DNA of 10,442 bases from Nitrososphaerota archaeon (GCA_002317795.1 NVWC01000008.1:47493-57934); one strand, 5' to 3'. Counted from the stretch's first letter, positions 2,073 to 10,442 are shown. Notes: a model not told the origin generated them from the sequence alone. A program made the numbers and translations.

Positions 2073-2258
2073 TTGTTAACATTAGATAAATCAAAATTCA
2101 AAGTATATTCTGAAATTTCTGACACTACTTTGACTGATTGGTCTCAAGATAAAAACGATAAAAAATTTGTGAGATTCACATATTTGCCAGACTTTGACAA
2201 AGTGGTAATAAACGATTATGAAAAAGATGCTGTCTGTGAAAATCTTTATCAAAAATAA
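2073..2258 (+). pseudogene. Possible C-terminal relic of a degraded gene (hypothetical)
   Basis: TTG-start 61-aa ORF. The frame is open upstream to 1980 (LFSSRNEKLRKATKATPSIFKKGEK...) through the repeat array. No recognisable domain. Confidence 0.25.
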
Positions 2259-2354
2259 ATTTTGGTAATTACTTTCGTCATAACGTTTAACCAATTTCCA
2301 ACAAAACATCTTTTTTGTAATCGCTAGAGTAGCGTCTGTTTTGTCGCCTGAGAG

Positions 2355-2398
2355 GGGGCATTCTATTTTTACTGACAATCTCTAAAAATAGAAGCCCC
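2355..2398. other. Strong inverted repeat / hairpin
   Basis: GGGGC(A)TTCTATTTTTA, an 11-nt loop, then TAAAAATAGAAGCCCC: a 16-bp stem with a single-nucleotide bulge. Confidence 0.75.
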
Positions 2399-2530
2399 AT
2401 CCATTGTGCATACATTTGTGACAGTGACTAAAGATGTGACGGATGATGGTTTGTTGGAAATTGCTTATGTTCATCTAATCTATATTATACAAACTATTGA
2501 GATTCTAAATTTTTAAAATCTTAATGCTAG

Positions 2531-3163
2531 CTAAAATAATATTTTTAATGGATTTTGTTTGTTCAAACTTAATTCGATAACTTCCTTATTTCTTAAAATA
2601 AAAATCCTATCATGCTCTTCAAATAAATTCAAAATCTCATTAAAATCTGATTTGAATACATCATTTGTATTATAAATACACAATACAACACCATTGATCC
2701 TTTTATTATTGTATATATTTTCAAATTTATTTGCTGATTTTAGGGATTCTGGTTTTACTATTCCTATGATGCAAGCTTGTTTATATTTGGATTCAGAAAA
2801 TTTTTTATACATTCCATCATGGAATTGTTCAGGTTTTTTTGTTTGTTTTAGATTAATAGATACATCTTGCCATCCTTGTTTTGTTAGAAATTTTTTGACA
2901 TTAGATGATTGAGAATTATTGTATCCTTGATACCAATCATTTTTAGTTGCATCATCCATTTTTTTAATAAAATACATCAGTGATTCTTCATCAGAGTATA
3001 GAACAAGATGGTGGTTTTTTGTGATCTCTTCTTTTTGTTTTTTCCAATTTTCAATGGCATCTTCGATGATGGCAGCAGGTGTAACTCCTTCTTTTTTTGC
3101 CATTTCATTTAGTTCATCATGTATTTTTTCACTGAACCCTCTCACATACAACACTTTAGTCAT
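2531..3163 (-). CDS. Putative transcriptional regulator: N-terminal ribbon-helix-helix plus C-terminal MEDS-like sensor domain
   Basis: The N-terminus KVLYVRGFSEKIHDELNEMAKKEGVTPAAIIEDAIENW has a beta-helix-G-helix RHH/CopG pattern. The rest has MEDS-like motifs HHLVLYSDEE, FENIYN, VVLCIYN and HDRIF. Divergent from a two-gene unit. Confidence 0.7.
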   Translation of the reverse strand: MTKVLYVRGFSEKIHDELNEMAKKEGVTPAAIIEDAIENWKKQKEEITKNHHLVLYSDEESLMYFIKKMDDATKNDWYQGYNNSQSSNVKKFLTKQGWQDVSINLKQTKKPEQFHDGMYKKFSESKYKQACIIGIVKPESLKSANKFENIYNNKRINGVVLCIYNTNDVFKSDFNEILNLFEEHDRIFILRNKEVIELSLNKQNPLKILF

Positions 3164-3164
3164 A

Positions 3165-3242
3165 ATTTTGATTCAAAATCATTGTATTTAAATGCAAGTG
3201 CGCTTGCAAATTGGGTAAATTATAAATAGTGCTTGCATGCAA
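3165..3242. promoter_or_regulatory. Back-to-back archaeal promoters with palindromic operator candidates
   Basis: Minus-strand TATA TTTAAATA (3185-3192) lies 22-29 nt before ATG 3163. Plus-strand TATA TTATAAAT (3220-3227) lies about 30 nt before ATG 3256. Palindromes: ATTTTGA-T-TCAAAAT (3165-3179), TGCAAG-TGCG-CTTGCA (3193-3208) and TTGCATGCAA (3233-3242). Confidence 0.7.
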
Positions 3243-3255
3243 TCATCTTTAGAAA

Positions 3256-3828
3256 ATGAGCAAAACACTAACAAAAGTTTCCATTCGCAAACAAATTCTT
3301 TCTGGTTCTATAGGTGGAATTATTGGTGGAATTTTTATGATGATTCCGATATTTTTTCTATCTATGATGATGGGAATGCCTGCAGATGGTTTTGTCACTA
3401 TGATGGGGGTTGCATTGGGTTCTTCTATTGAAAATGCCGCAATAACAGGTGGCGTATTGCATTTTCTTGCAAGTGGCATAATTGGAATTCTCTTTACAAT
3501 TGTAACTGGTAAATCAAAAAAACTGTCTATATTTGGGGTGAAAAAAGGAGTTGCACTTTCTGTAGTTACTGCAGCAATTTCTATGGCGGTACTTGGAATG
3601 CCAATAATGTTTGGTCTAATGCCCCCAGTAATGATGCAAATGATGTTAGAACAAAATCCTGAAACAACTCAAGAATTTTTAATGGAACAAATGCAAGGCA
3701 TGTTTCCATTTTTATTAATTTTTGATTCAATGGCTCATTTACTATATGGAATAACTCTGGGAGTAATTCATGGAACATTAATGAAAAAATGGAGTTTGCA
3801 ATCAACCATTGCAGTTAATGAAGATTAA
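3256..3828 (+). CDS. Met-rich integral membrane protein (about 4 TM) with intramembrane His residues; DUF1440/DUF6789-like
   Basis: Four Gly-rich hydrophobic segments, motifs GGVLHFLASGIIG (H69) and MAHLLYGITLG (H161), and 22 Met in 190 aa by hand count. Confidence 0.8.
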   Translation: MSKTLTKVSIRKQILSGSIGGIIGGIFMMIPIFFLSMMMGMPADGFVTMMGVALGSSIENAAITGGVLHFLASGIIGILFTIVTGKSKKLSIFGVKKGVALSVVTAAISMAVLGMPIMFGLMPPVMMQMMLEQNPETTQEFLMEQMQGMFPFLLIFDSMAHLLYGITLGVIHGTLMKKWSLQSTIAVNED

Positions 3829-3841
3829 AGGAGGTGAAATA

Positions 3842-4267
3842 ATGAAAGTACAAATAACAAAAATTATTGATGCCCCCGCAGAAAACATCTGGAAGACAAT
3901 TCGTTCCTACGATAACGTGGAAAGATTCAATCCAATGGTGACTAGCTCAACCATTACTGGAACAAATGAAGGATCTGAACGTGTATGTCAAATACAATTT
4001 GGCGATCAGCAAGCAGAACTTGTCGAAAACCTAGATTTAGTTGATGAGGAAAACAAAACAATCAAAGTCAGTATAACACATGCTCCACCTCCATTTGGTG
4101 GACAACAAATAACATTTCAGGTGAAATCCTTGGATGAGAACAAAGCAGAACTTGTAATCTCTACTGACGTAGCAGATGATAACAAACAAGCAGCAAAAGG
4201 ACTAGAAGATGTATTCCAAATGATGTCTGTGGGTCTCAAAAAACTACACGAAAAGGAGATGAATTAG
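3842..4267 (+). CDS. SRPBCC (START/Bet v1/polyketide cyclase-like) family protein
   Basis: MKVQITKIIDAPAENIWKTIRSYDNVERFNP...G-GSER...ENL..VDE and a C-terminal helix ending GLKKLHE. Start re-assigned from 3809 to ATG 3842 because of the Shine-Dalgarno GGAGGTGA at 3830-3837 and to avoid overlap with the upstream gene. Confidence 0.88.
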   Translation: MKVQITKIIDAPAENIWKTIRSYDNVERFNPMVTSSTITGTNEGSERVCQIQFGDQQAELVENLDLVDEENKTIKVSITHAPPPFGGQQITFQVKSLDENKAELVISTDVADDNKQAAKGLEDVFQMMSVGLKKLHEKEMN

Positions 4268-4595
4268 AATAAATGAAATAAAATCTTCACAACAATTTGA
4301 ACAATAGGTTCTCAATTCATTACTTGAATTCTAATAGAACAACCATCCTTGAAAATGAGTGAAGGATAAGAATTTGATATACTCGAAGATGATGATATTA
4401 CAAACTTGGCGATGCATCATCAATTAAACTAGTTTCAGAAATTGGAAATGTTTATGCAATAAATTATGATTTTACATCTCCCTATGTATGTGCAACTTAG
4501 AGTTAAGACAATGAAAATTATTCACCATCAAATTAGATATTTTCAACCAGTAAATGTTTTCCTAGTATGCTCATAATGATCTTCCAGGATTTCTT

Positions 4596-4772
4596 TTATT
4601 TTTCTTCCGTCTTTGGTTCTTCTTTAGCTGGTTCTGGAGTTGACTCTTCTTTAGCTGGTTCTGGAGTTGACTCTTCTTTAGCTGGTTCTGGAGTTGACTC
4701 TTCTTTAGCTGGTTCTGGAGTTGACTCTAGTTCTCCCTTTTTCTTTTTGGAGAAAAAGTCAAAGAATCCCAT
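4596..4772 (-). CDS. Small acidic low-complexity protein (58 aa), MGFFDFFSKKKKG followed by (ESTPEPAKE)x4
   Basis: ATG at 4772 gives an MGFFDFF-basic N-terminus, a common amphipathic start. The in-frame 27-bp repeats preserve the frame. The longer start at 4844 is less likely. Confidence 0.65.
   Translation of the reverse strand: MGFFDFFSKKKKGELESTPEPAKEESTPEPAKEESTPEPAKEESTPEPAKEEPKTEEK
4620..4727. repeat. Tandem repeat, 4 perfect copies of 27 bp
   Basis: TTCTTTAGCTGGTTCTGGAGTTGACTC at 4620, 4647, 4674 and 4701. Confidence 0.97.
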
Positions 4773-4978
4773 AAATATTCGTATATTATCCTGCCTAATA
4801 TAATCTTCTAGGTTGTCAACATGTAGCCTTACAGTAAGTGCCACAATCTTTCAAACCCGTCTTTTGATATGTCATTATGCAAATCTTGAATTTGAAAAAT
4901 ATTTGTCATTATATTTTCCTACCACATTATACTATCATTAGATATGGCATCAAAGACCAATGGATTCTCATTTACACT

Positions 4979-5104
4979 ATCCAAAAACAAGCAAAACAAA
5001 TCAAGGAATCTACAAAATCAATAAGCTTTTCTAAAGTTTTGAATGAAACTGTACGTATTGGTTTAAAAAAAAGCATAGAAAAAGATCGTCAAAATTTTCA
5101 ATAA
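4979..5104 (+). pseudogene. C-terminal relic of a small thaumarchaeal RHH-like protein
   Basis: QKQAKQIKESTKSISFSKVLNETVRIGLKK resembles, from memory, the C-terminal half of about 50-aa Nitrosopumilus proteins (…QAKMI…S.SFS.VLNE.LR.GLK). The expected N-terminal KR[IV]TI..DDD strand is not visible in ORF 4877..5104. Confidence 0.45.
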
Positions 5105-5191
5105 CATTATAACTTGTAATAATTACTTGATTGACCAAAATATTAGTCCCAAAAAATGTAACATGATTTGTGTGTGATATGTATTTAAAAT

Positions 5192-5614
5192 TTATAAATT
5201 AAATTTTTGTTTGTATTCTTGAATTTTTTTTTCCCAATCTGATTTGGATGAACGATAACCAAACAGATAAGCTAAAAGTATTTTCAATAATACAATGTAT
5301 TTTTTATTAATTTTCACCATCACCAGATCATGATGATTTAGTAAATTACTTCGTGCATTGTGGTATTTTTTAATGTCATTTTTTTCATATACTGTAATCT
5401 TGTTATCATTTTCTAACAGATCTAGCAAAAAATCAAAATCATTGGAGGTAATGTCATTATGCTCCCTTGCAATATAACTACTAACACACATCATAACTGC
5501 ATCATCTATACTGATAAAAGCAAGATGTTTCGCATGTTTTCTTGAGTTTTCACTAAGTATTCTACCAAAACATAACTGTTCAATAATTATTTGAATTGTG
5601 TGGTTTGTAGTGAT
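5192..5614 (-). CDS. HEPN-like domain protein, probably start-codon-less or degenerate
   Basis: The frame stays open upstream of ATG 5494 to a stop at 5633-5635, adding ...IIIEQLCFGRILSENSRKHAKHLAFISIDDAV. AFISIDDAV...FDFLLDLL...IKKYHNARSNLLNHH matches the HEPN pattern (A.I.ID.AVE ... F..LL..L ... Rx4-6H). Confidence 0.55.
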   Translation of the reverse strand: MTTNHTIQIIIEQLCFGRILSENSRKHAKHLAFISIDDAVMMCVSSYIAREHNDITSNDFDFLLDLLENDNKITVYEKNDIKKYHNARSNLLNHHDLVMVKINKKYIVLLKILLAYLFGYRSSKSDWEKKIQEYKQKFNL

Positions 5615-5721
5615 GTATGTAATTAGGATAAATTATGATTTAAAAATTTTTAAAATTATTTTTTAAATCTAAAAATACTCTATTCAATTCCTTAGAGATT
5701 TGAATCAATTCTAAAACTCTT

Positions 5722-5738
5722 TGGGTCCGTAGGGATTT
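5722..5738 (-). mobile_element. Possible att-site scar: 17-nt tRNA 3'-end-like fragment
   Basis: The minus strand reads AAAT CCCTA CGGACCC A, which parses as T-loop end, T-stem 3' strand, 7-nt acceptor 3' strand and discriminator. It is a GC-rich spot in very AT-rich DNA. No full tRNA is present. Confidence 0.4.
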
Positions 5739-5934
5739 ACTCATTAATTGGGACCCAGATAGGCATGAATTATTTTAAAATCTAAATTTCAATATCATTG
5801 TAACCACTTTCTTTACCACAATGAGGACATGTTCTTTGGTTTTGGAATAGTTCTTTTCCACAATTTCGACATGATTGAGGTTTCACAAAATAATTAGCAT
5901 TTTATTTAATTTAAACAGTGATTTCATCTTAGGT

Positions 5935-6020
5935 TCAATTCCTGAAGCTGAACGTACAGTTTTGGGTTTAATGGAGGGAAACTTAGTCCAAATAATTAGT
6001 GTGTCAATAAATAAAAACAA
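5935..6020 (+). pseudogene. Fragment of an AbrB/MazE/SpoVT-type DNA-binding protein
   Basis: SIPEAERTVLGLMEGNLVQII fits the AbrB consensus (GRI)xIPxxxRxxLGlxxGDxV. The N-terminal strand is missing, and ORF 5875..6123 overlaps the convergent gene. Confidence 0.5.
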
Positions 6021-6036
6021 AAATCAAACAAAAAAT
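6008..6036 (-). terminator. Putative oligo-T archaeal terminator of the glutamate synthase-like operon
   Basis: The minus strand immediately after the stop at 6040 reads TTTTTTGTTTGATTTTTGTTTTTATTTATT. Confidence 0.45.
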
Positions 6037-6039
6037 GAT

Positions 6040-6948
6040 TTATTGCATAGTATTTTTATCTGCAATTATTTTTTCAAATTCTTTAAAATCAATTTCATCA
6101 TGTTTAATGTTGGTAAGAATTAATTTGGTATTTGTATGAGAAAAGTCATTTAGATTTTCAATCAAAAGTTCTTGTTCAAATATTTTCAAGACGTTTTTAA
6201 TTTTTACATAATCATTTTCATCTAATTTTTTTATTACTGCTCCTTTTCCGGTAGTAGTTCCTTGTCTAGTGTAAATAGCACCGCCTACCATACCCGAGCC
6301 AAATTGTTCACCAGGATCACCCAAGTTAATTAAAATACCGTCTGACATGTATATTCCAGAATTAAATCCGGCACCAAATGTAACTAGATTACCACCTCTA
6401 GCTTGAGCCATAGCTCTTTCCATACATCCTTTTCTAACAAGAATATCAACACCATGACTGTAACTAGTAGATTGATTGTTTTGTCCTACAAGTTCTGTAG
6501 CTAACCCGTCGATAACAAATTTTCCACAGTATCCCTTATCTGCCAAACCATTTTCAGCATGACCTTTGACAGTCCAAGTTCCATAAAAATTACAAAACGC
6601 TCCAAAAAAATTTCCCACATTTCCTTCTATAGTTAAATTAAGATTCACAGGTTCTAAAAATCCCAAAACTCCAATTCTATAAAGCGCTTTAGGATTTTTT
6701 ATAGTGATATTGTTTTCACCTTCTTCTATTTTTTTCCTAATGATAGAATTTGTTACATTTTCATATAGGATGGGGGAGCTAGCAACATCTCCAAATTTCT
6801 CTATTGCCGCAGTTTTTAGACCATTAGGTAACAAGATCCCAAATTTTTCTTGTAATGTCTTTTTCAATAAATCAAATTCATTTTCAGTTTCTTTTGAAGC
6901 GATTTCAAACGCTAGTTCTCTGATTTCATCAATATCTAAAATAAACAT
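6040..6948 (-). CDS. GXGXG beta-helix protein (glutamate synthase domain 3 / GlxC-MgsB / FwdC-like)
   Basis: Repeats LTIEGNVGNFFG, TVKGHAENGLAD, ARGGNLVTFGAG, GIYMSDG and GDPGEQFGSGMVGGAIYTR. There is an extra segment of about 45-50 aa near the N-terminus. Confidence 0.9.
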   Translation of the reverse strand: MFILDIDEIRELAFEIASKETENEFDLLKKTLQEKFGILLPNGLKTAAIEKFGDVASSPILYENVTNSIIRKKIEEGENNITIKNPKALYRIGVLGFLEPVNLNLTIEGNVGNFFGAFCNFYGTWTVKGHAENGLADKGYCGKFVIDGLATELVGQNNQSTSYSHGVDILVRKGCMERAMAQARGGNLVTFGAGFNSGIYMSDGILINLGDPGEQFGSGMVGGAIYTRQGTTTGKGAVIKKLDENDYVKIKNVLKIFEQELLIENLNDFSHTNTKLILTNIKHDEIDFKEFEKIIADKNTMQ

Positions 6949-6950
6949 GA

Positions 6951-7805
6951 TTAATTCCTGAAAAAGATTTTAGGTTTTCCTGGATGAGGTGTCTCAATTT
7001 TTGCAGTTGCTCCTATTACATCTAGAGCCGACAAATCAGTTGCCATTGCCCAAAATGGAGGATGTTCTTCTGTTCCTGGATTGTATCCCACAATTCCTTT
7101 TCTTGTCCCAAATTTATCTCTGACAATTGCAAGTGAATCTGGAGTTGCTGCAATGTAGGTAAACGGACCATCAGCTTTTGCTATAAATTCACGATGTGCT
7201 CTTTCAACATTACCATGTTTGAGAAGTCTACTTGCAAAAAAAACTGCAATTACTTCTGAATCACTATGGGTGTAAAAGTTATACCCTTCTAATTCCAGCG
7301 AGTTTCTAAGCATGTTATAATTTGTGATCTCCCCATTATGCACAATTGCAATATCAGGTAAAATAGTAGTACTAAATGGATGTGTGTTGTATGGTGTTAC
7401 TCTACTGCTTGTAGCAATTCTTAGATGACCTATACCATGCGAACCAACCATTTTTCTAATATTGTATTTTTTATCAAGATCTTTTGCTAAACCTACCTCT
7501 TTGACTATTGTCATTTCATTTTCAAGACTGAAAAAAGTACAATCATCATTACCAAACAGATTCATCAAGTTCTCATCTACTTTTTCTTGAGATGAACTAG
7601 TTTCATTAACAATGTAATCTCCTTCATTATTTCTAAAACTCTTTATTCTAAAAGTATCACTAGCGTTAGTTTTGTTAAATATTGCAACACCTGCTCCATC
7701 TTGTGCCCGTATCTGTTGACTTTCCATCATATCTTGTAAAAGGGATCCCACATGTGGATGACGTAACTCTGCATTATCAATCATAATTCCACATATTCCA
7801 CACAT
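6951..7805 (-). CDS. Class II (Ntn) glutamine amidotransferase (glutamate synthase domain 1 / GlxB-MgsA-like)
   Basis: N-terminal MCGICG (catalytic Cys after Met removal), R..DGAG, GIGHLRIAT, HPF, HNGEITNY, DSEV and DGPFT. A Shine-Dalgarno GGAGG lies in the end of the upstream gene. Confidence 0.93.
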   Translation of the reverse strand: MCGICGIMIDNAELRHPHVGSLLQDMMESQQIRAQDGAGVAIFNKTNASDTFRIKSFRNNEGDYIVNETSSSQEKVDENLMNLFGNDDCTFFSLENEMTIVKEVGLAKDLDKKYNIRKMVGSHGIGHLRIATSSRVTPYNTHPFSTTILPDIAIVHNGEITNYNMLRNSLELEGYNFYTHSDSEVIAVFFASRLLKHGNVERAHREFIAKADGPFTYIAATPDSLAIVRDKFGTRKGIVGYNPGTEEHPPFWAMATDLSALDVIGATAKIETPHPGKPKIFFRN

Positions 7806-8957
7806 TTAATTTTCCTCCAAGGATATCATCTCAATAATTTTTTGTTTTTGTTGTTGAACAACTGAAATTTTTTTTGTATCGATGTACTCATCTAAAACTT
7901 CTTCAATTATTTTCTTGTATGTTTTGTTAACACCCTCTAATAGTATTTCTCCTTCTAAACTTGCTTTAAGACTAGAAGTTCTAAAATCACTAGGAGACAT
8001 ATTATGAAAATTGCTATATCCTAATGCTGCAGGAATTCCTATCAGCTCATTTTTTGTAGCAATCATATGATTGTGAATTTTCTCTGCAGTGATTATACTA
8101 TCAAAGAAATTTTCGGTGTAGAATCCAACTTTTGCTATTAATAGGCTTAGATCATAACCAACAATATCTGCCCCCAATCCAACAGATTTTATAATTTTTC
8201 CGGTGCTATCCACATCACCTGCAACAATAAGACAAGTACCATCATTTTCTTTTCCCTGATAAAATTCATTGATTATTTTTCTTGCGTCATGTATTACAGA
8301 TATTGCATGTTTTTCTACATATTTTTTACTTTTTGTAATCTTTTCAGTATTTACCAAAATTCCATCAACACCAGATGCTAATAATCTATGAGTATAATCT
8401 GAAAAATTTTCATCAACTTCCACTATAATGGGACCCCAAAATTCTTTTCTAATTTTTCTAATTTTTTCAATAATCCCAATATCATCATATTGCATTACGA
8501 TTCCTTCAGAGTCAGAAATTTTATTGACATCATTAATAATTTGAAAGTGAGGATATTTTCTTTCATCGTATGGTTCTTCTTTAGAAATTATCCCGACAGT
8601 TGAATTATTATCCACTAAATTATTTAATGCAAAATTTAATGCATCTTGTGAACTTTGAGATAGATTAAATTCACCATAAAGTAGAATAGGTATTTTTAGA
8701 ATTGTTTTTGTAGTTCCTTTTCGACCAACTTCAGTTTTAAGTTTAATTTTTTCTCTATAAGGATCAAATGGAGGTCTTGAGAGTTGAGCTCCAAGTGCTA
8801 CTACATAATCCCACAAATTTTCTTTATATTTAGTCCCACGTTTTTCTCTAATTGCTCTTATAGCATCATCAGTTGATTCTTTTCGTATTGAATCTGTCTT
8901 GCAAAGATCTAGTATAGATCTTCTAATAACTGCTTTTTCATTTAATCTCAAAATCAT
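7806..8957 (-). CDS. Degenerate FMN-binding glutamate synthase-like paralog (pseudo-enzyme candidate)
   Basis: Retains WDYVVALGAQLSRPPFDPYREKIKLKTEVG..LKIPI, IRKIRKE..GPIIVEV, GVDGILV, LIVAGDV...IIKSVGLGADIVG and EL..I.AALG...HNMSPSD. Lacks MSYG, NTGEGG, Q.ASGRF, EIKIGQGAK.G.GG, DG..GGTGA and the CX5CX4C loop. Confidence 0.8.
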   Translation of the reverse strand: MILRLNEKAVIRRSILDLCKTDSIRKESTDDAIRAIREKRGTKYKENLWDYVVALGAQLSRPPFDPYREKIKLKTEVGRKGTTKTILKIPILLYGEFNLSQSSQDALNFALNNLVDNNSTVGIISKEEPYDERKYPHFQIINDVNKISDSEGIVMQYDDIGIIEKIRKIRKEFWGPIIVEVDENFSDYTHRLLASGVDGILVNTEKITKSKKYVEKHAISVIHDARKIINEFYQGKENDGTCLIVAGDVDSTGKIIKSVGLGADIVGYDLSLLIAKVGFYTENFFDSIITAEKIHNHMIATKNELIGIPAALGYSNFHNMSPSDFRTSSLKASLEGEILLEGVNKTYKKIIEEVLDEYIDTKKISVVQQQKQKIIEMISLEEN

Positions 8958-10426
8958 TCACCTTGGAAATTAAGAAAGGGCATTACATTTTCTATTTTTT
9001 GTTTGATTTTCATTACATAATCGTCCCCATTTGAAAAAGATAATCTTGAAACAATACTGGTCAACATATCATTTACAACTAGATCACTCATTTCAAGGTC
9101 TTTGATATTTTTTCTTCCTAGTGAACCGGCAATATTTTCAAGTTCAGTTTTTGTTGTTTTGATATAATTAAAAATCCCCTCTACACTGTTTTCAATATCT
9201 AGTTTTTCATGAGAACCAGTTATTCCTGCAGGACAAATATCTGTGTGACACTCCTGAATTAGGGTACATCCCATTGCTAGTAGAAATCCTGTGCCTATTC
9301 CAACACCGTCTGCACCTAATGCCATTACTTTTACAATTCTTTCAGAATCCCAAATACCACCATTTACCAATAATTTGAACCCGTCCTCATCATGTGTTTT
9401 ATAATAATCTGCTATTGTATTTCTAAGGGGAAAAAGAGACGCAATTGTATTGATTCCAATGTCTTCTCGTACTTCAAATGGTGCAGCACCTGTTCCTCCT
9501 GATACCCCATCTACAGTGGCACAATCAGCATATGATTTTAGAATTATTTCCATATCATCATAAATACGAGATGCACCAATTTTAACAATTATGGGGATTT
9601 TCCATTCAGTTAATTCTCTTATCTCGAGTATTTTTGCAACTAAATCTTCAGGCCCTAAAATATCTAAATGTCTTGAGGGGGAATGAGCGGGTTTGTTTGG
9701 AAGTATTCCTCGATTTTCTGCAACCAGTTCTGTAACTTTTGAACCTGGAAGTAATCCTCCATGACCTATCTTTGCTCCTTGACCAATTTTAATTTCAATA
9801 CCATCTGCGTTAAGGAGATATGATGGATCTTTCCAAAATCTACCCGAAGCATATTGAACTACTAGAGGATATTTTCGTTGAAATAATTCATCAATACAAA
9901 TATCTTCCAAGTGACTATCTTTTAGTAATTTGTTTGTATATTCTAAAATTGAATTCCAATGATTTTTAGATAAATTTTCTCGAGATTTTTCAGAACCATA
10001 TATTTCCCAAGGTAATGCCCCACCTTCCCCAGTATTCATTAAAACTTTAATTCCATTTTCTGCAAGTTTGTTTAATGCAAAATGTAATGCAATTTTTGCA
10101 GGTAATTTAACAGAACCATAACTCATCCCAGCAACTGAAAATGGAACATCTGTTTTGATAATATTTTTAGAGTAACGACCCCCAATTGTTAATGAAGTAT
10201 CGACATCAGAATAATTTTGTGATGTATTTAATTTTGCATCTTTAATCTTAATATTTGAAAAATAATCATTAGGAACATGGGCTCCTAAACTAGCATATGG
10301 CACTAATCCATTTGTTGCTTTTTCAGCATCAAGTAATAGATTTTTCAGATTAGTTTTATGACCATCTTTTCTTGCAATTTTTTCCATATTCCATCTCAAG
10401 TTCAAAATATCTTTTGAAAGAGGCAT
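8954..10426 (-). CDS. FMN-binding, 3Fe-4S glutamate synthase family subunit (GltB domain 2 / GlxD-MgsC-like)
   Basis: AGMSYGS, MNTGEGG, QYASGRF, IEIKIGQGAKIGHGGLLPGSKV, HSPSRHLDI, VKIG, VDGVSGGTGAAP, NGGI, ALGADGVGIGT and CTLIQECHTDICPAGI (CX5CX4C). Confidence 0.95.
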   Translation of the reverse strand: MPLSKDILNLRWNMEKIARKDGHKTNLKNLLLDAEKATNGLVPYASLGAHVPNDYFSNIKIKDAKLNTSQNYSDVDTSLTIGGRYSKNIIKTDVPFSVAGMSYGSVKLPAKIALHFALNKLAENGIKVLMNTGEGGALPWEIYGSEKSRENLSKNHWNSILEYTNKLLKDSHLEDICIDELFQRKYPLVVQYASGRFWKDPSYLLNADGIEIKIGQGAKIGHGGLLPGSKVTELVAENRGILPNKPAHSPSRHLDILGPEDLVAKILEIRELTEWKIPIIVKIGASRIYDDMEIILKSYADCATVDGVSGGTGAAPFEVREDIGINTIASLFPLRNTIADYYKTHDEDGFKLLVNGGIWDSERIVKVMALGADGVGIGTGFLLAMGCTLIQECHTDICPAGITGSHEKLDIENSVEGIFNYIKTTKTELENIAGSLGRKNIKDLEMSDLVVNDMLTSIVSRLSFSNGDDYVMKIKQKIENVMPFLNFQGE

Positions 10427-10442
10427 TGTTTCAAATTACACC

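What the first reader, a model, noticed from the sequence alone, without database searches (positions are those of the whole stretch)
6040..10426. Four-gene split glutamate synthase-like / N-methylglutamate synthase-like operon in an ammonia-oxidising archaeon
Seen: four co-directional, tightly coupled genes (ATGA overlap at 8954-8957, TAA-ATG abutment at 7806/7805, 2-nt gap at 6949-6950). They encode an FMN/3Fe-4S subunit, a second FMN-type subunit, an Ntn amidotransferase and a GXGXG protein. Known: the three domain types correspond to the split archaeal GltB1/2/3 and to GlxBCD/MgsABC N-methylglutamate synthase, and Nitrosopumilus-type AOA are usually described as assimilating ammonium via glutamate dehydrogenase/glutamine synthetase without a typical GOGAT. 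Inference: a laterally acquired four-subunit variant giving either ferredoxin-linked GS-GOGAT assimilation, or an amine/amide-to-ammonia route (e.g. methylamine + glutamate -> N-methylglutamate + NH3) that could feed ammonia oxidation.
Basis: partly seen in the sequence, partly recalled or inferred. Interest (0 to 1): 0.8.

Follow-up and report, generated by a model that had tools for sequence, protein, structure and literature searches.

The report
Four-gene archaeal glutamate synthase module
A minority of marine ammonia-oxidising archaea carry a glutamate synthase split into four small genes next to its own extra glutamine synthetase, a high-affinity nitrogen-assimilation kit that most of their relatives lack and that was known before only from a few soil relatives.

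Summary
Four tightly coupled minus-strand genes (6040-10426) encode an FMN/[3Fe-4S] synthase, a cofactor-stripped paralogue of it that matches the GltB central domain, a Cys1 Ntn amidotransferase and a GXGXG protein. These are all four domains of a GltB large subunit, as separate genes in the order FMN-central-GAT-GXGXG.

Just outside the window, a third type I glutamine synthetase is transcribed divergently. It accompanies the cluster in every related locus that reaches far enough (17/17 Nitrosopumilaceae-type, 25/25 Nitrososphaeraceae-type metagenome loci).

The best reading is an accessory GS-GOGAT module, probably ferredoxin-dependent: the cluster cysteines are kept, and no GltD or fused ferredoxin domain was found.

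The N-methylglutamate route is disfavoured. MgsC-like proteins lack the cluster cysteines, and their partner is a type III GS.

The module is rare in the genus (5/151 genomes) but present in 17/111 sampled Nitrososphaeraceae. Its proteins diverge between families about as much as a core GS paralogue, so old inheritance with loss fits better than recent lateral acquisition.

The four-subunit enzyme was already reported for two Nitrosocosmicus species (Alves 2019). This is therefore a new member of a known kind, with added detail on the second subunit and the linked GS.

The parts
8954..10426 (-). ORF1 (490 aa): FMN-binding synthase subunit with [3Fe-4S] ligands. It equals the GltB FMN/synthase domain.
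   Evidence: Pfam PF01645, 3.6e-80. phmmer to A. brasilense and Synechocystis GltS, E about 1e-29 to 1e-32. Cys387, Cys393 and Cys398 align with GltS Cys1102, Cys1108 and Cys1113. The C-x5-C-x4-C motif is present in the window ORF1 and in 6 of 6 other AOA homologues checked. No Fer4 domain.
7806..8957 (-). ORF2 (383 aa): stand-alone, probably cofactor-less TIM-barrel paralogue of ORF1. It equals the GltB central domain.
   Evidence: hhalign A1 vs the AOA ORF1 family: 99.6 %, E 1.6e-23, 316 columns. A1 vs 12 bacterial GltB: best hit is the central domain 460-717, 94.4 %, E 8.9e-8. The invariant motif GAQLSRPP(F/Y)DPYRE aligns to FAQVTNPPIDPxRE. Fused FMN+central proteins occur in non-AOA relatives. 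AF2 model pLDDT 81.7; best VIA match is A. brasilense GltS, Z 20.8, tied with other FMN-type barrels.
6951..7805 (-). ORF3 (284 aa): GlxB/PurF-type class II (Ntn) glutamine amidotransferase, the glutaminase subunit.
   Evidence: Pfam GATase_6 and GATase_7. Starts MCGI. R129, N157-G158 and D182 align with E. coli GlmS R73, N98-G99 and D123. 28-30 % identical over its full length to MgsA-like proteins; no BLAST hit to the GltB N-terminal domain.
6040..6948 (-). ORF4 (302 aa): GXGXG beta-helix subunit. It equals the GltB C-terminal domain.
   Evidence: Pfam PF01493, 1.8e-11. phmmer to A. brasilense GltS residues 1253-1394, E 1e-3. BLAST to the Fd-GOGAT and GltB C-termini and to MgsB-like proteins.
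6003..6039 (-). T-rich tract directly after the ORF4 stop; likely end of the transcript.
   Evidence: Read from the sequence. That oligo-T tracts terminate archaeal transcription is general knowledge, not tested here.
10427..10442 (.). First 16 bases of the 196-bp divergent intergenic region between ORF1 and the linked glutamine synthetase. That gene lies outside the window at G000:C1:58115-59623, which equals window 10623-12131 on the + strand.
   Evidence: ORF table of contig C1. GS is TIGR00653, 513 bits against a cut-off of 429. A TATA-like box and GGTAA/TTACC-like repeats upstream of ORF1 were seen in an alignment of 8 loci; not tested further.

Best explanation
The four genes encode one heteromeric glutamate synthase (GOGAT) whose subunits are the four domains of a bacterial GltB or plant Fd-GltS large subunit.

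Proposed mechanism:
- ORF3 uses its N-terminal cysteine to hydrolyse glutamine.
- The ammonia passes through a tunnel lined by ORF2 (central-domain equivalent) and ORF1.
- On ORF1 the ammonia adds to 2-oxoglutarate, and the imine is reduced by FMNH2.
- FMN is re-reduced one electron at a time through the [3Fe-4S] cluster of ORF1 by an external donor, most likely a ferredoxin.
- ORF4 is the structural beta-helix.

Together with the divergently transcribed extra type I glutamine synthetase, this forms a self-contained, ATP-consuming, high-affinity GS-GOGAT ammonium-assimilation module. The module is accessory in Nitrosopumilaceae, commoner in Nitrososphaeraceae, and probably old in AOA.

Shown: gene structure, domain identities, conserved catalytic and cluster residues, linkage to GS, and distribution. 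Inferred: assembly into one enzyme, the reaction, the ferredoxin donor and the physiological role.
For: 1. All four GltB domain types are present.
2. Catalytic and cofactor residues are kept:
   - Cys1 plus R129, N157-G158 and D182 in ORF3.
   - The three cluster cysteines, and the Lys/Arg that align with GltS K937/R957, in ORF1.
3. Fusions support a physical association. Non-AOA genomes of the same order and class, and P0139, encode FMN+central as one 711-792-aa protein (773 aa in G028). One of the two examined (G039) fuses GAT and GXGXG into one protein; in the other (G028) the amidotransferase frame is cut by the contig end before any GXGXG part. Both keep the same domain order.
4. A type I GS (TIGR00653 over cut-off) is adjacent in 17 of 17 Nitrosopumilaceae-type and 25 of 25 Nitrososphaeraceae-type metagenome loci that extend upstream of ORF1, and in 9 of 9 such genome loci.
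   - It is a third GS copy in this genome (paralogues at 50 % and 43 % identity).
   - It forms a clade with the other cluster-linked GS (support 99/98).
5. Evidence on the electron donor:
   - No GltD-type Fer4_20 domain in the 95.6 %-complete genome; the control rang in 10 of 14 genomes.
   - No Fer4 domain on ORF1.
   - The genome has a 2-oxoacid:ferredoxin oxidoreductase and at least 5 Fer4 ORFs over cut-off.
6. In soil-type loci an Lrp/AsnC regulator lies beside the module in 6 of 7 inspected. Two were confirmed by Pfam; the rest were judged by their N-terminal sequence.
7. The stretch is not an assembly chimera. An independent study's contig of 5048 nt covers 6224-10442 with 5 differences, and depth is even across cluster and flank in three runs.
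Against: - There is no biochemical, transcript or protein evidence. No RNA run holding the stretch was listed.
- The electron donor is not identified, and no ferredoxin gene lies in this locus.
- ORF3 is more like MgsA-type amidotransferases (E 1e-36 to 1e-38) than the GltB glutaminase domain, to which it gave no BLAST hit.
- ORF1 is about as similar to MgsC-like proteins (36 %) as to GltB (30-34 %).
- The AOA ORF1 clade sits on a very long stem (3.1 changes per site) and carries a lineage-specific insert of about 36-44 residues, so a changed substrate cannot be excluded.
- Central-domain homology of ORF2 rests on 94 % hhalign probability and one strong motif. Structure search ties GltS with generic FMN barrels.
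- Why an organism living on ammonia and holding GDH (contig C1) would need GS-GOGAT is unexplained.
Confidence: 0.75

Rival explanations
1. N-methylglutamate-synthase-like or GlxBCD-like enzyme. The complex would take an amine or gamma-glutamyl-amide (for example methylamine or gamma-glutamylmethylamide) and exchange it on glutamate/2-oxoglutarate without external electrons, releasing ammonia that could feed ammonia oxidation.
For: ORF3 and ORF4 are of the small GlxB/MgsA and MgsB size class. ORF3 is 28-30 % identical to MgsA-like proteins and ORF1 36 % to MgsC-like proteins. A GS-family gene is adjacent, as gmaS is to mgsABC in the three bacterial loci.
Against: - ORF1 and all 6 other AOA homologues checked keep C-x5-C-x4-CP. 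All 3 MgsC-like proteins have lost it and carry an insertion there.
- The linked GS passes the type I GlnA model and fails the type III model (203 bits against a cut-off of 470). The bacterial partner scores 656 bits on the type III model.
- No type III GS over cut-off is in the genome.
- There is a fourth, central-domain gene, and the gene order differs.
- The labels Mgs/GmaS for L022-L024 are my inference from gene content, not curated names.
Confidence: 0.04
2. A GOGAT-derived amidotransferase/reductase with a different acceptor or donor, such as another 2-oxoacid or another amide. It would be a glutamine-dependent reductive aminase that is not glutamate synthase proper.
For: Very long stem of the AOA ORF1 clade and a lineage-specific insert of about 36-44 residues next to the substrate loop. 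The ORF2 family is tiny: 25 representatives at E <= 1e-3 among 1.84 billion. AOA already have GDH.
Against: The Lys and Arg aligning with GltS K937/R957 are invariant in 11 of 11 AOA ORF1 sequences; their role in 2-oxoglutarate binding is recalled, not tested. The constant partner is a glutamine synthetase, which makes the GOGAT substrate.
Confidence: 0.12
3. Artefact: the cluster does not belong to the AOA genome, because of a chimeric contig or a mis-binned contig.
For: All five holders in the genus are multi-contig assemblies. The far end of contig C1 (68237-68949) has ORFs of quite different, high-GC composition. Logan contigs do not bridge the whole window in one piece.
Against: - GC is 0.27-0.35 across the window.
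- Depth is even across cluster and flanks in three runs, one of them from another study.
- The same contig carries 3-hydroxypropionate-CoA ligase and an archaeal GDH.
- In other assemblies the module is flanked by genes 70-91 % identical to genes on other contigs of this genome.
- The module's relatives are found only in AOA families.
Confidence: 0.02

Closest known systems
Four-subunit 'archaeal type' GOGAT of Ca. Nitrosocosmicus arcticus Kfb (NARC_80135-80138) and Ca. N. oleophilus MY3 (NMY3_03179-03182), from Alves et al. 2019, PMC6657660 (passages read)
   Same: Four adjacent genes in AOA. The ORF2 homologue of N. arcticus (TVP40406.1) is 45 % identical over 98 % of ORF2. Nitrososphaeraceae loci have the same order O1-O2-O3-O4, with 59-69 %, 39-49 %, 37-69 % (mostly 54-61 %) and 47-66 % identity respectively.
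   Different: - Here the host is a Nitrosopumilaceae member, a family the paper's text counts among AOA without GOGAT.
- GS is divergent here but co-directional in the soil type.
- The paper calls the reaction NADPH-dependent. No NADPH-binding subunit was found here.
Ferredoxin-dependent glutamate synthase (Fd-GltS, e.g. Synechocystis, PDB 1ofd/1llw) and the bacterial GltB alpha subunit (A. brasilense, 1ea0/2vdc/6s6s)
   Same: The same four domain types, the FMN + [3Fe-4S] site, and a Cys1 glutaminase. Like Fd-GltS there is no beta subunit.
   Different: - Four polypeptides instead of one of about 1500 aa.
- The order is FMN-central-GAT-GXGXG instead of GAT-central-FMN-GXGXG.
- The glutaminase is of the short GlxB/PurF type (284 aa) rather than PF00310.
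- The central-domain equivalent is a full 8-stranded barrel in the model and is still recognisably paralogous to the FMN domain.
Methanogen-type archaeal glutamate synthase (Fer4 + FMN protein of about 490-510 aa, with separate GAT and GXGXG genes)
   Same: A split GOGAT in archaea with small GAT and GXGXG proteins.
   Different: - That type carries an N-terminal 2x[4Fe-4S] ferredoxin domain: Atlas cluster 'Archaeal glutamate synthase [NADPH]', Fer4 in 100 % of members, 493 aa (row 9). The details for M. jannaschii are recalled.
- ORF1 has none.
- No sequence of this type was in hand for a tree.
MgsABC / GlxBCD (N-methylglutamate synthase type), with gmaS
   Same: Small class II amidotransferase, GXGXG protein and Glu_synthase-domain protein, next to a GS-family gene.
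   Different: - No central-domain gene.
- The FMN subunit lacks the cluster cysteines (3 of 3).
- The partner is a type III GS.
- The gene order is GAT-GXGXG-FMN.
Fused [FMN-central] and, where seen, [GAT-GXGXG] GOGAT-like genes of non-AOA Nitrososphaeria (G028, G039; f21, f24, f25)
   Same: The same domain order; the ORF2-like part follows the FMN part.
   Different: The domains are fused, with FMN+central as one protein in both genomes examined; the GAT-GXGXG fusion was seen in one (G039), while the G028 frame is cut by the contig end. Identity to ORF1 is only 35-36 % and to ORF2 23-26 %. In the ORF1 tree they do not group with the AOA clade, though long branches make that placement unreliable.

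Membership tests
Glutamate synthase large-subunit type (GltB / Fd-GltS) | Ntn (class II) glutaminase with N-terminal Cys and glutamine-binding Arg, Asn-Gly and Asp | tested here: met
   ORF3 starts MCGI. R129, N157-G158 and D182 align with GlmS R73, N98-G99 and D123. The roles of these residues are recalled from the GlmS/PurF literature.
Glutamate synthase large-subunit type (GltB / Fd-GltS) | FMN-binding synthase domain (PF01645) with three Cys ligands of a [3Fe-4S] cluster | tested here: met
   PF01645, 3.6e-80. Cys387, Cys393 and Cys398 align with A. brasilense Cys1102, Cys1108 and Cys1113; that these are the cluster ligands is recalled. They are invariant in 11 of 11 AOA ORF1 sequences.
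Glutamate synthase large-subunit type (GltB / Fd-GltS) | Central domain (PF04898) | tested here: met
   ORF2 alone is below the Pfam cut-off (16.2 bits against 22.8). Its family profile hits the GltB central domain 460-717 at 94.4 %, E 8.9e-8. Its fused relatives pass PF04898 at 1e-15 to 4e-18.
Glutamate synthase large-subunit type (GltB / Fd-GltS) | C-terminal GXGXG beta-helix domain | tested here: met
   ORF4: PF01493, 1.8e-11, 44.3 bits against a cut-off of 32.5.
Glutamate synthase large-subunit type (GltB / Fd-GltS) | One polypeptide of about 1500 aa with domain order GAT-central-FMN-GXGXG | tested here: not met
   Four genes in the order FMN-central-GAT-GXGXG.
Glutamate synthase large-subunit type (GltB / Fd-GltS) | Glutamine + 2-oxoglutarate + 2 e- gives 2 glutamate | not testable with these tools
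   Needs an enzyme assay.
NADPH-dependent bacterial GOGAT (GltBD) | GltD beta subunit (Fer4_20 + FAD/NADPH domain) | tested here: not met
   PF14691 was not found in the genome (95.6 % complete). The control rang in 10 of 14 genomes.
Four-subunit archaeal-type GOGAT of Nitrosocosmicus (Alves 2019) | Four adjacent genes, including the ORF2-type protein, in an AOA genome | tested here: met
   The ORF2 homologue in Ca. N. arcticus is 45 % identical. The same four-gene order occurs in all Nitrososphaeraceae loci wherever the genes lie within the contig. Mapping to the paper's locus tags was not possible.
MgsABC/GlxBCD N-methylglutamate synthase type | FMN subunit without Fe-S ligands (redox-neutral enzyme) | tested here: not met
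   ORF1 has C-x5-C-x4-CP; 3 of 3 MgsC-like proteins do not. This feature is defined from those three loci, not from a curated definition.
MgsABC/GlxBCD N-methylglutamate synthase type | Adjacent type III GS (GmaS-like, TIGR03105) | tested here: not met
   The linked GS scores 203 bits on TIGR03105 (cut-off 470) and 513 bits on TIGR00653 (cut-off 429). None in the genome is over cut-off.
MgsABC/GlxBCD N-methylglutamate synthase type | N-methylglutamate dehydrogenase (sarcosine-oxidase-like) genes in the genome | tested here: inconclusive
   PF04267 was not found, but the control rang in 0 of 14 genomes, so the search proves nothing.
Methanogen-type archaeal GltB | N-terminal 2x[4Fe-4S] ferredoxin domain on the FMN subunit | tested here: not met
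   No Fer4 family on ORF1. ORF1 has 5 Cys in all, 3 of them in the [3Fe-4S] motif.

The most novel reading that the evidence does not exclude
The GS + four-gene GOGAT module is an ancestral AOA trait, kept in a minority of Nitrosopumilaceae and Nitrososphaeraceae and lost many times. [quoted passage not shown]

Its second subunit would be a surviving intermediate. It is still 99.6 % hhalign-recognisable as a copy of the FMN barrel, yet carries the central-domain signature. That would show that the enigmatic GltB central domain arose by duplication of the synthase domain, in a multi-subunit ferredoxin-dependent ancestor of modern GltB.
Probability: 0.35. Interest if true: 0.6.

Novelty: new member of a known kind. 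Interest (0 to 1): 0.45.

Why it matters
AOA are usually modelled as assimilating ammonium through low-affinity GDH.

A complete, dedicated GS-GOGAT module in some Nitrosopumilus-type lineages would mean these populations can invest ATP and low-potential electrons in high-affinity assimilation. That bears on competition for ammonium, on isotope and N-budget models, and on reconstructions of AOA evolution.

The ORF2 protein also gives sequence-level support to an old structural conjecture: that the GltB central domain is a degenerate copy of the FMN barrel (PMC8097209, passage).

Practically, ORF2-type genes are annotated 'hypothetical'. Pathway callers may therefore miss this GOGAT, while other papers infer GS-GOGAT from glnA alone (PMC12097351, passages).

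Tried and rejected
- **Complex prediction (ORF1 family + ORF2 family).** There is no information on binding.
- **RNA evidence.** The look-up of sequencing runs listed no RNA holder, so nothing can be said on expression.
- **Foldseek of the ORF2 model against PDB**. The rows shown (to rank 50) are generic FMN-dependent barrels and no GltS row is among them. VIA-align puts A. brasilense GltS first, but tied with other barrels. Structure therefore shows a TIM barrel and does not by itself tell central domain from FMN domain.
- **Genome-wide PF04898 search** in the window's genome found nothing, in line with ORF2 being below the Pfam cut-off.
- **PF04267 (SoxD) search.** Uninformative, because the control was silent.
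- **ORF1 tree**. Deep branches are unreliable (long-branch warnings), and the relation of the two AOA families inside the clade is unresolved. It cannot decide between vertical and lateral origin.
- **Bacterial sigma-70 promoter and terminator scan**. Not meaningful for an archaeon.
- **Rfam and tRNA scans of the window.** Nothing found.
- **The search of earlier findings.** Nothing found.
- **Distant ORF2 relatives** P0125, P0126, P0128 and P0132 (23-28 % identity in the alignment).
- **A hit in G025.** From the start of its protein it looks like a dihydroxy-acid dehydratase, so I read it as a chance match; I did not confirm this with a family search.
- **Searches for prior description of this cluster in Nitrosopumilaceae**. 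None was found in the library. Supplements of the cited papers were not read and may list such genes.

Full report
**What is in the window**

The window is G000:C1:47493-57934, part of a 1.9-Mb, 37-contig genome that is 95.6 % complete.
- ORF1: 8954-10426, 490 aa.
- ORF2: 7806-8957, 383 aa.
- ORF3: 6951-7805, 284 aa.
- ORF4: 6040-6948, 302 aa.

The junctions are an ATGA overlap, a TAA-ATG abutment and a 2-nt gap. A T-rich tract follows ORF4. At the other end of the window lies a 3-hydroxypropionate-CoA ligase (NF045492, 939 bits, truncated by the window end). This enzyme belongs to the thaumarchaeal carbon-fixation cycle. Close homologues of the four proteins come from records titled Nitrosopumilus sp. 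or Nitrosopumilaceae.

**The four proteins**

ORF1 is a Glu_synthase (FMN) domain protein (PF01645, 3.6e-80).
- Its alignment to A. brasilense GltS puts Cys387, Cys393 and Cys398 on Cys1102, Cys1108 and Cys1113. I recall these as the [3Fe-4S] ligands.
- It also conserves the Lys and Arg that align with K937 and R957. These equal K972 and R992 of Synechocystis Fd-GltS, recalled as 2-oxoglutarate ligands.
- The cysteines are invariant in 11 of 11 AOA ORF1 sequences aligned.
- ORF1 has no ferredoxin domain.

ORF3 starts MCGI and is a short GATase_6/7-type Ntn amidotransferase. R129, N157-G158 and D182 sit on GlmS R73, N98-G99 and D123.

ORF4 is a GXGXG protein.

ORF2 has no Pfam family above cut-off and is annotated 'hypothetical' in public records.
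- Its family is tiny: 25 representative clusters at E <= 1e-3 among 1.84 billion proteins, 6 of them below 1e-30.
- A profile of 20 members matches the AOA ORF1 family over 316 columns (hhalign 99.6 %, E 1.6e-23). ORF2 is therefore a paralogue of the FMN barrel.
- The alignment shows ORF2 has lost three elements: the GQGAK...GG substrate loop, the GGTGA loop and the cysteine loop.
- Against 12 bacterial GltB large subunits, its best match is the central domain (residues 460-717, 94.4 %, E 8.9e-8). The invariant GAQLSRPP(F/Y)DPYRE motif aligns on FAQVTNPPIDPxRE. The FMN domain comes only second (78 %).
- Proteins that fuse an FMN domain to an ORF2-like part pass Pfam Glu_syn_central. These are P0139 (792 aa) and those of G028 (773 aa) and G039.
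- The AF2 model (pLDDT 81.7, pTM 0.81) is an eight-stranded barrel.
- Foldseek lists generic FMN-dependent barrels. VIA-align ranks A. brasilense GltS first (Z 20.8, rmsd 3.6, 301 aligned), but tied with other barrels.

Together, the four genes are the four domains of a GltB or Fd-GltS large subunit, in the order FMN-central-GAT-GXGXG.

**The neighbour outside the window**

A 502-aa ORF is transcribed divergently 196 bp upstream of ORF1. It passes the type I GlnA equivalog model (TIGR00653, 513 bits against a cut-off of 429) and fails the type III model (203 against 470).
- It is a third GS in this genome; the two others are 50 % and 43 % identical.
- Orthologues of at least 83 % identity occur in only 4 of 150 other genomes of the genus. 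A fifth is cut by a contig end.
- Nitrosopumilaceae-type metagenome loci (21 in all): a divergent GS lies next to ORF1 in all 17 that extend upstream. The other 4 end at or within ORF1/ORF2.
- Nitrososphaeraceae-type loci (37 in all): a co-directional GS lies directly upstream in all 25 that extend far enough. The other 12 start inside ORF1 or ORF2. Some of these contigs are duplicates of each other or of genome-contig loci.
- All 9 genome-derived loci with upstream sequence also have the GS.
- In a tree of 24 GS sequences the cluster-linked GS form one clade (99/98), with the two AOA families as sub-clades (100/100 and 95/96).
- Contig C1 also carries a class I amidotransferase and GDH within 6 kb.

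**Distribution**

- Genus: close ORF1 orthologues (78-87 % identity) occur in 4 of 150 other genomes. With G000 that makes 5 of 151, all multi-contig assemblies.
- Order (sample of 400): ORF2 at E <= 1e-20 in 1 of 112 Nitrosopumilaceae-family genomes (another genus), in 17 of 111 genomes of family f15, and in 0 of 177 genomes of 18 other families. Family f15 is where the Nitrososphaeraceae/Nitrosocosmicus-named homologues belong.
- Class (profile search): stand-alone ORF2 only in those two families. Weaker matches lie inside 711-786-aa frames in other orders, and one in a 478-aa frame (f24 5/10, f25 1/8, f21 1/9, f23 1/1).
- Four further genus hits in that search are a different protein: a Rieske-domain/FMN-domain fusion of about 530 aa with no GAT or GXGXG neighbour.

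**GOGAT or N-methylglutamate synthase?**

Three bacterial loci came up by weak similarity: L022 to L024, from Rhodobacter, a Pseudomonadota MAG and Tateyamaria. They carry GAT (311-326 aa), GXGXG (225 aa), an FMN protein and a GS homologue scoring 656 bits on the type III model. I read these as mgsABC-gmaS-like clusters. That naming is my inference; the literature on them was seen only as a search listing.

Their FMN proteins lack all three cluster cysteines and have an insertion at that place. ORF1, 6 of 6 other AOA homologues, the non-AOA fused protein and the Rieske fusion all keep C-x5-C-x4-C.

So the AOA enzyme is built to receive electrons, has a central domain, and is partnered with a type I GS. 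All three are GOGAT traits, and none was seen in the Mgs-like loci. No type III GS over cut-off is in the genome. The search for an N-methylglutamate dehydrogenase marker was uninformative.

Against a clean verdict, two similarities point the other way. ORF3 resembles MgsA-like proteins (28-30 %, E 1e-36 to 1e-38) more than the GltB glutaminase domain. ORF1 is about equally distant from MgsC-like proteins, the fused archaeal form and bacterial GltB.

**Electron donor**

No GltD-type domain (PF14691) is found in the genome; the control rang in 10 of 14 genomes. ORF1 has no fused ferredoxin domain. This differs from the methanogen-type protein, for which the Atlas cluster has Fer4 in 100 % of members. 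The genome has a 2-oxoacid:ferredoxin oxidoreductase and several 4Fe-4S ORFs.

In one related locus (L017) and in G133, a homologue of one of these ferredoxin-domain ORFs lies next to the GS. In 6 of 9 related loci a siroheme sulfite/nitrite-reductase homologue does. A free ferredoxin is therefore the most likely donor. This is inference. Alves et al. describe the reaction as NADPH-dependent, which the gene content here does not support.

**Origin**

- A concatenated ORF1-4 tree of 16 loci splits the two families with support 1.000 (FastTree), and the GS tree agrees.
- Identity of the linked GS between families (63-64 %) is like that of a core GS paralogue (59.6 %). Between genera of the family it is 84.6 %, against 88.7 % and 82.1 % for the two core paralogues.
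- G133 keeps the linked-type GS but has no GOGAT genes beside it, which looks like partial loss.
- Non-AOA relatives have the same domain order in fused form.

This fits an old module with many losses, or one ancient transfer. The flanks of the module differ among Nitrosopumilaceae assemblies, so it has moved or its surroundings have been rearranged. The ORF1 tree cannot root the AOA clade because of long branches. Abby et al. inferred loss of GOGAT at the AOA ancestor (PMC7554672, passage). The present data do not refute that but make it worth re-examining.

**Is the contig sound?**

GC is even across the window. Logan contigs of a run from a different study cover all 30 bins of the window. 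One 5048-nt piece covers 6224-10442 with 5 differences, and depth is 12.8 on the cluster against 13-17.5 on the 2444-5933 flank. Two runs of the probable source study show the same evenness. No single piece spans the whole window. The breaks lie at a 27-bp tandem repeat and near position 2310-2342.

**What is known already**

- Alves et al. [quoted passage not shown] N. arcticus and N. oleophilus, 'but not in ... other AOA' (passages).
- Wright and Lehtovirta-Morley 2023 repeat this.
- A 2025 paper states that GS-GOGAT occurs in some Nitrosarchaeum and Nitrosopumilus. In the passages read it names only glnA genes.
- A 2024 soil-MAG paper lists GOGAT in a figure legend.
- Five literature searches found no description of this cluster in Nitrosopumilaceae, of its dedicated GS, or of the nature of the second subunit. 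Supplements were not read.
[quoted passage not shown] ORF2 speaks for duplication.

**Verdict**

This is a real, well-conserved accessory GS-GOGAT module of ammonia-oxidising archaea, here in a Nitrosopumilus-type genome. It is a new member of a kind already noted in Nitrosocosmicus. Function as a ferredoxin-dependent glutamate synthase is the best-supported reading (about 0.75), and the amine route is unlikely (about 0.04). Interest is moderate: it corrects a common generalisation about marine AOA and adds an evolutionary point on GltB, but it is not a new kind of system.

Noticed in passing
window 4618-4728: A perfect 27-bp tandem repeat, 4.1 copies. It lies inside overlapping ORFs 4567-4803(+) and 4596-4844(-); the minus-strand frame reads ESTPEPAKE four times. 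Logan contigs break here.
   Followed up: partly
window 5782-5886 (-): A 34-aa ORF with two CxxC pairs (zinc-ribbon-like), about 150 bp downstream of ORF4.
   Followed up: no
window 2198-4368: One contig of an independent run joins 2197 to 4369, skipping 2171 bases that hold the RHH (CopG-like) ORF, a 190-aa ORF and the SRPBCC ORF (table 5). This may be a strain variant lacking that stretch.
   Followed up: no
L012-L016 (G122, G085, G004, G133, G021) and four more genus genomes: A fusion of about 530 aa between a Rieske [2Fe-2S] domain and a GltB-type FMN/[3Fe-4S] domain, followed by a conserved 234-238-aa ORF and with no GAT or GXGXG genes. It occurs in 9 of 150 other genomes of the genus. 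Its function is unknown.
   Followed up: partly
L104 (G133:C1:577000-596000): The linked-type GS (84 % identical) occurs without GOGAT genes. Its divergent neighbours are ETF beta-like and ETF alpha-like genes and a 623-aa FAD oxidoreductase. A siroheme sulfite/nitrite reductase and a ferredoxin-domain ORF lie downstream.
   Followed up: partly
G000:C1:68237-68949 (L044, far end): The last 700 bases or so of contig C1 give Arg/Pro/Gly-rich ORFs typical of high-GC DNA, unlike the rest of the contig. The contig end may be chimeric. From about C1 62.5 kb onward (the GDH gene and the ORFs after it) the sequence has many ambiguous bases.
   Followed up: no
window 10427-10442 and beyond (C1 57919-58114); L017, L018, L052-L065: Upstream of ORF1 the related loci share a TATA-like box preceded by repeated ATTGGTAA / TTACCAAT-like words. 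This is a candidate operator in the divergent GS/GOGAT promoter region.
   Followed up: no
L078, L081, L084, L086, L088, L090, L092: In Nitrososphaeraceae-type loci an Lrp/AsnC-family regulator lies beside the module in 6 of 7 loci inspected. Two were confirmed by Pfam. An ORF-free AT-rich gap of about 600-800 bp separates ORF3 and ORF4 in 6 of the 7 inspected (not L092, where the two overlap); the gap was searched for small ORFs in two loci only (L084, L078). In the window these two genes are 2 nt apart.
   Followed up: partly
Atlas rows: Stand-alone proteins of 319-384 aa resembling ORF2 (partial PF01645/PF04898 hits) appear in clusters from Pseudomonadota, Thermodesulfobacteriota and Thermoplasmatota. 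Free central-domain-like proteins may exist outside AOA.
   Followed up: no
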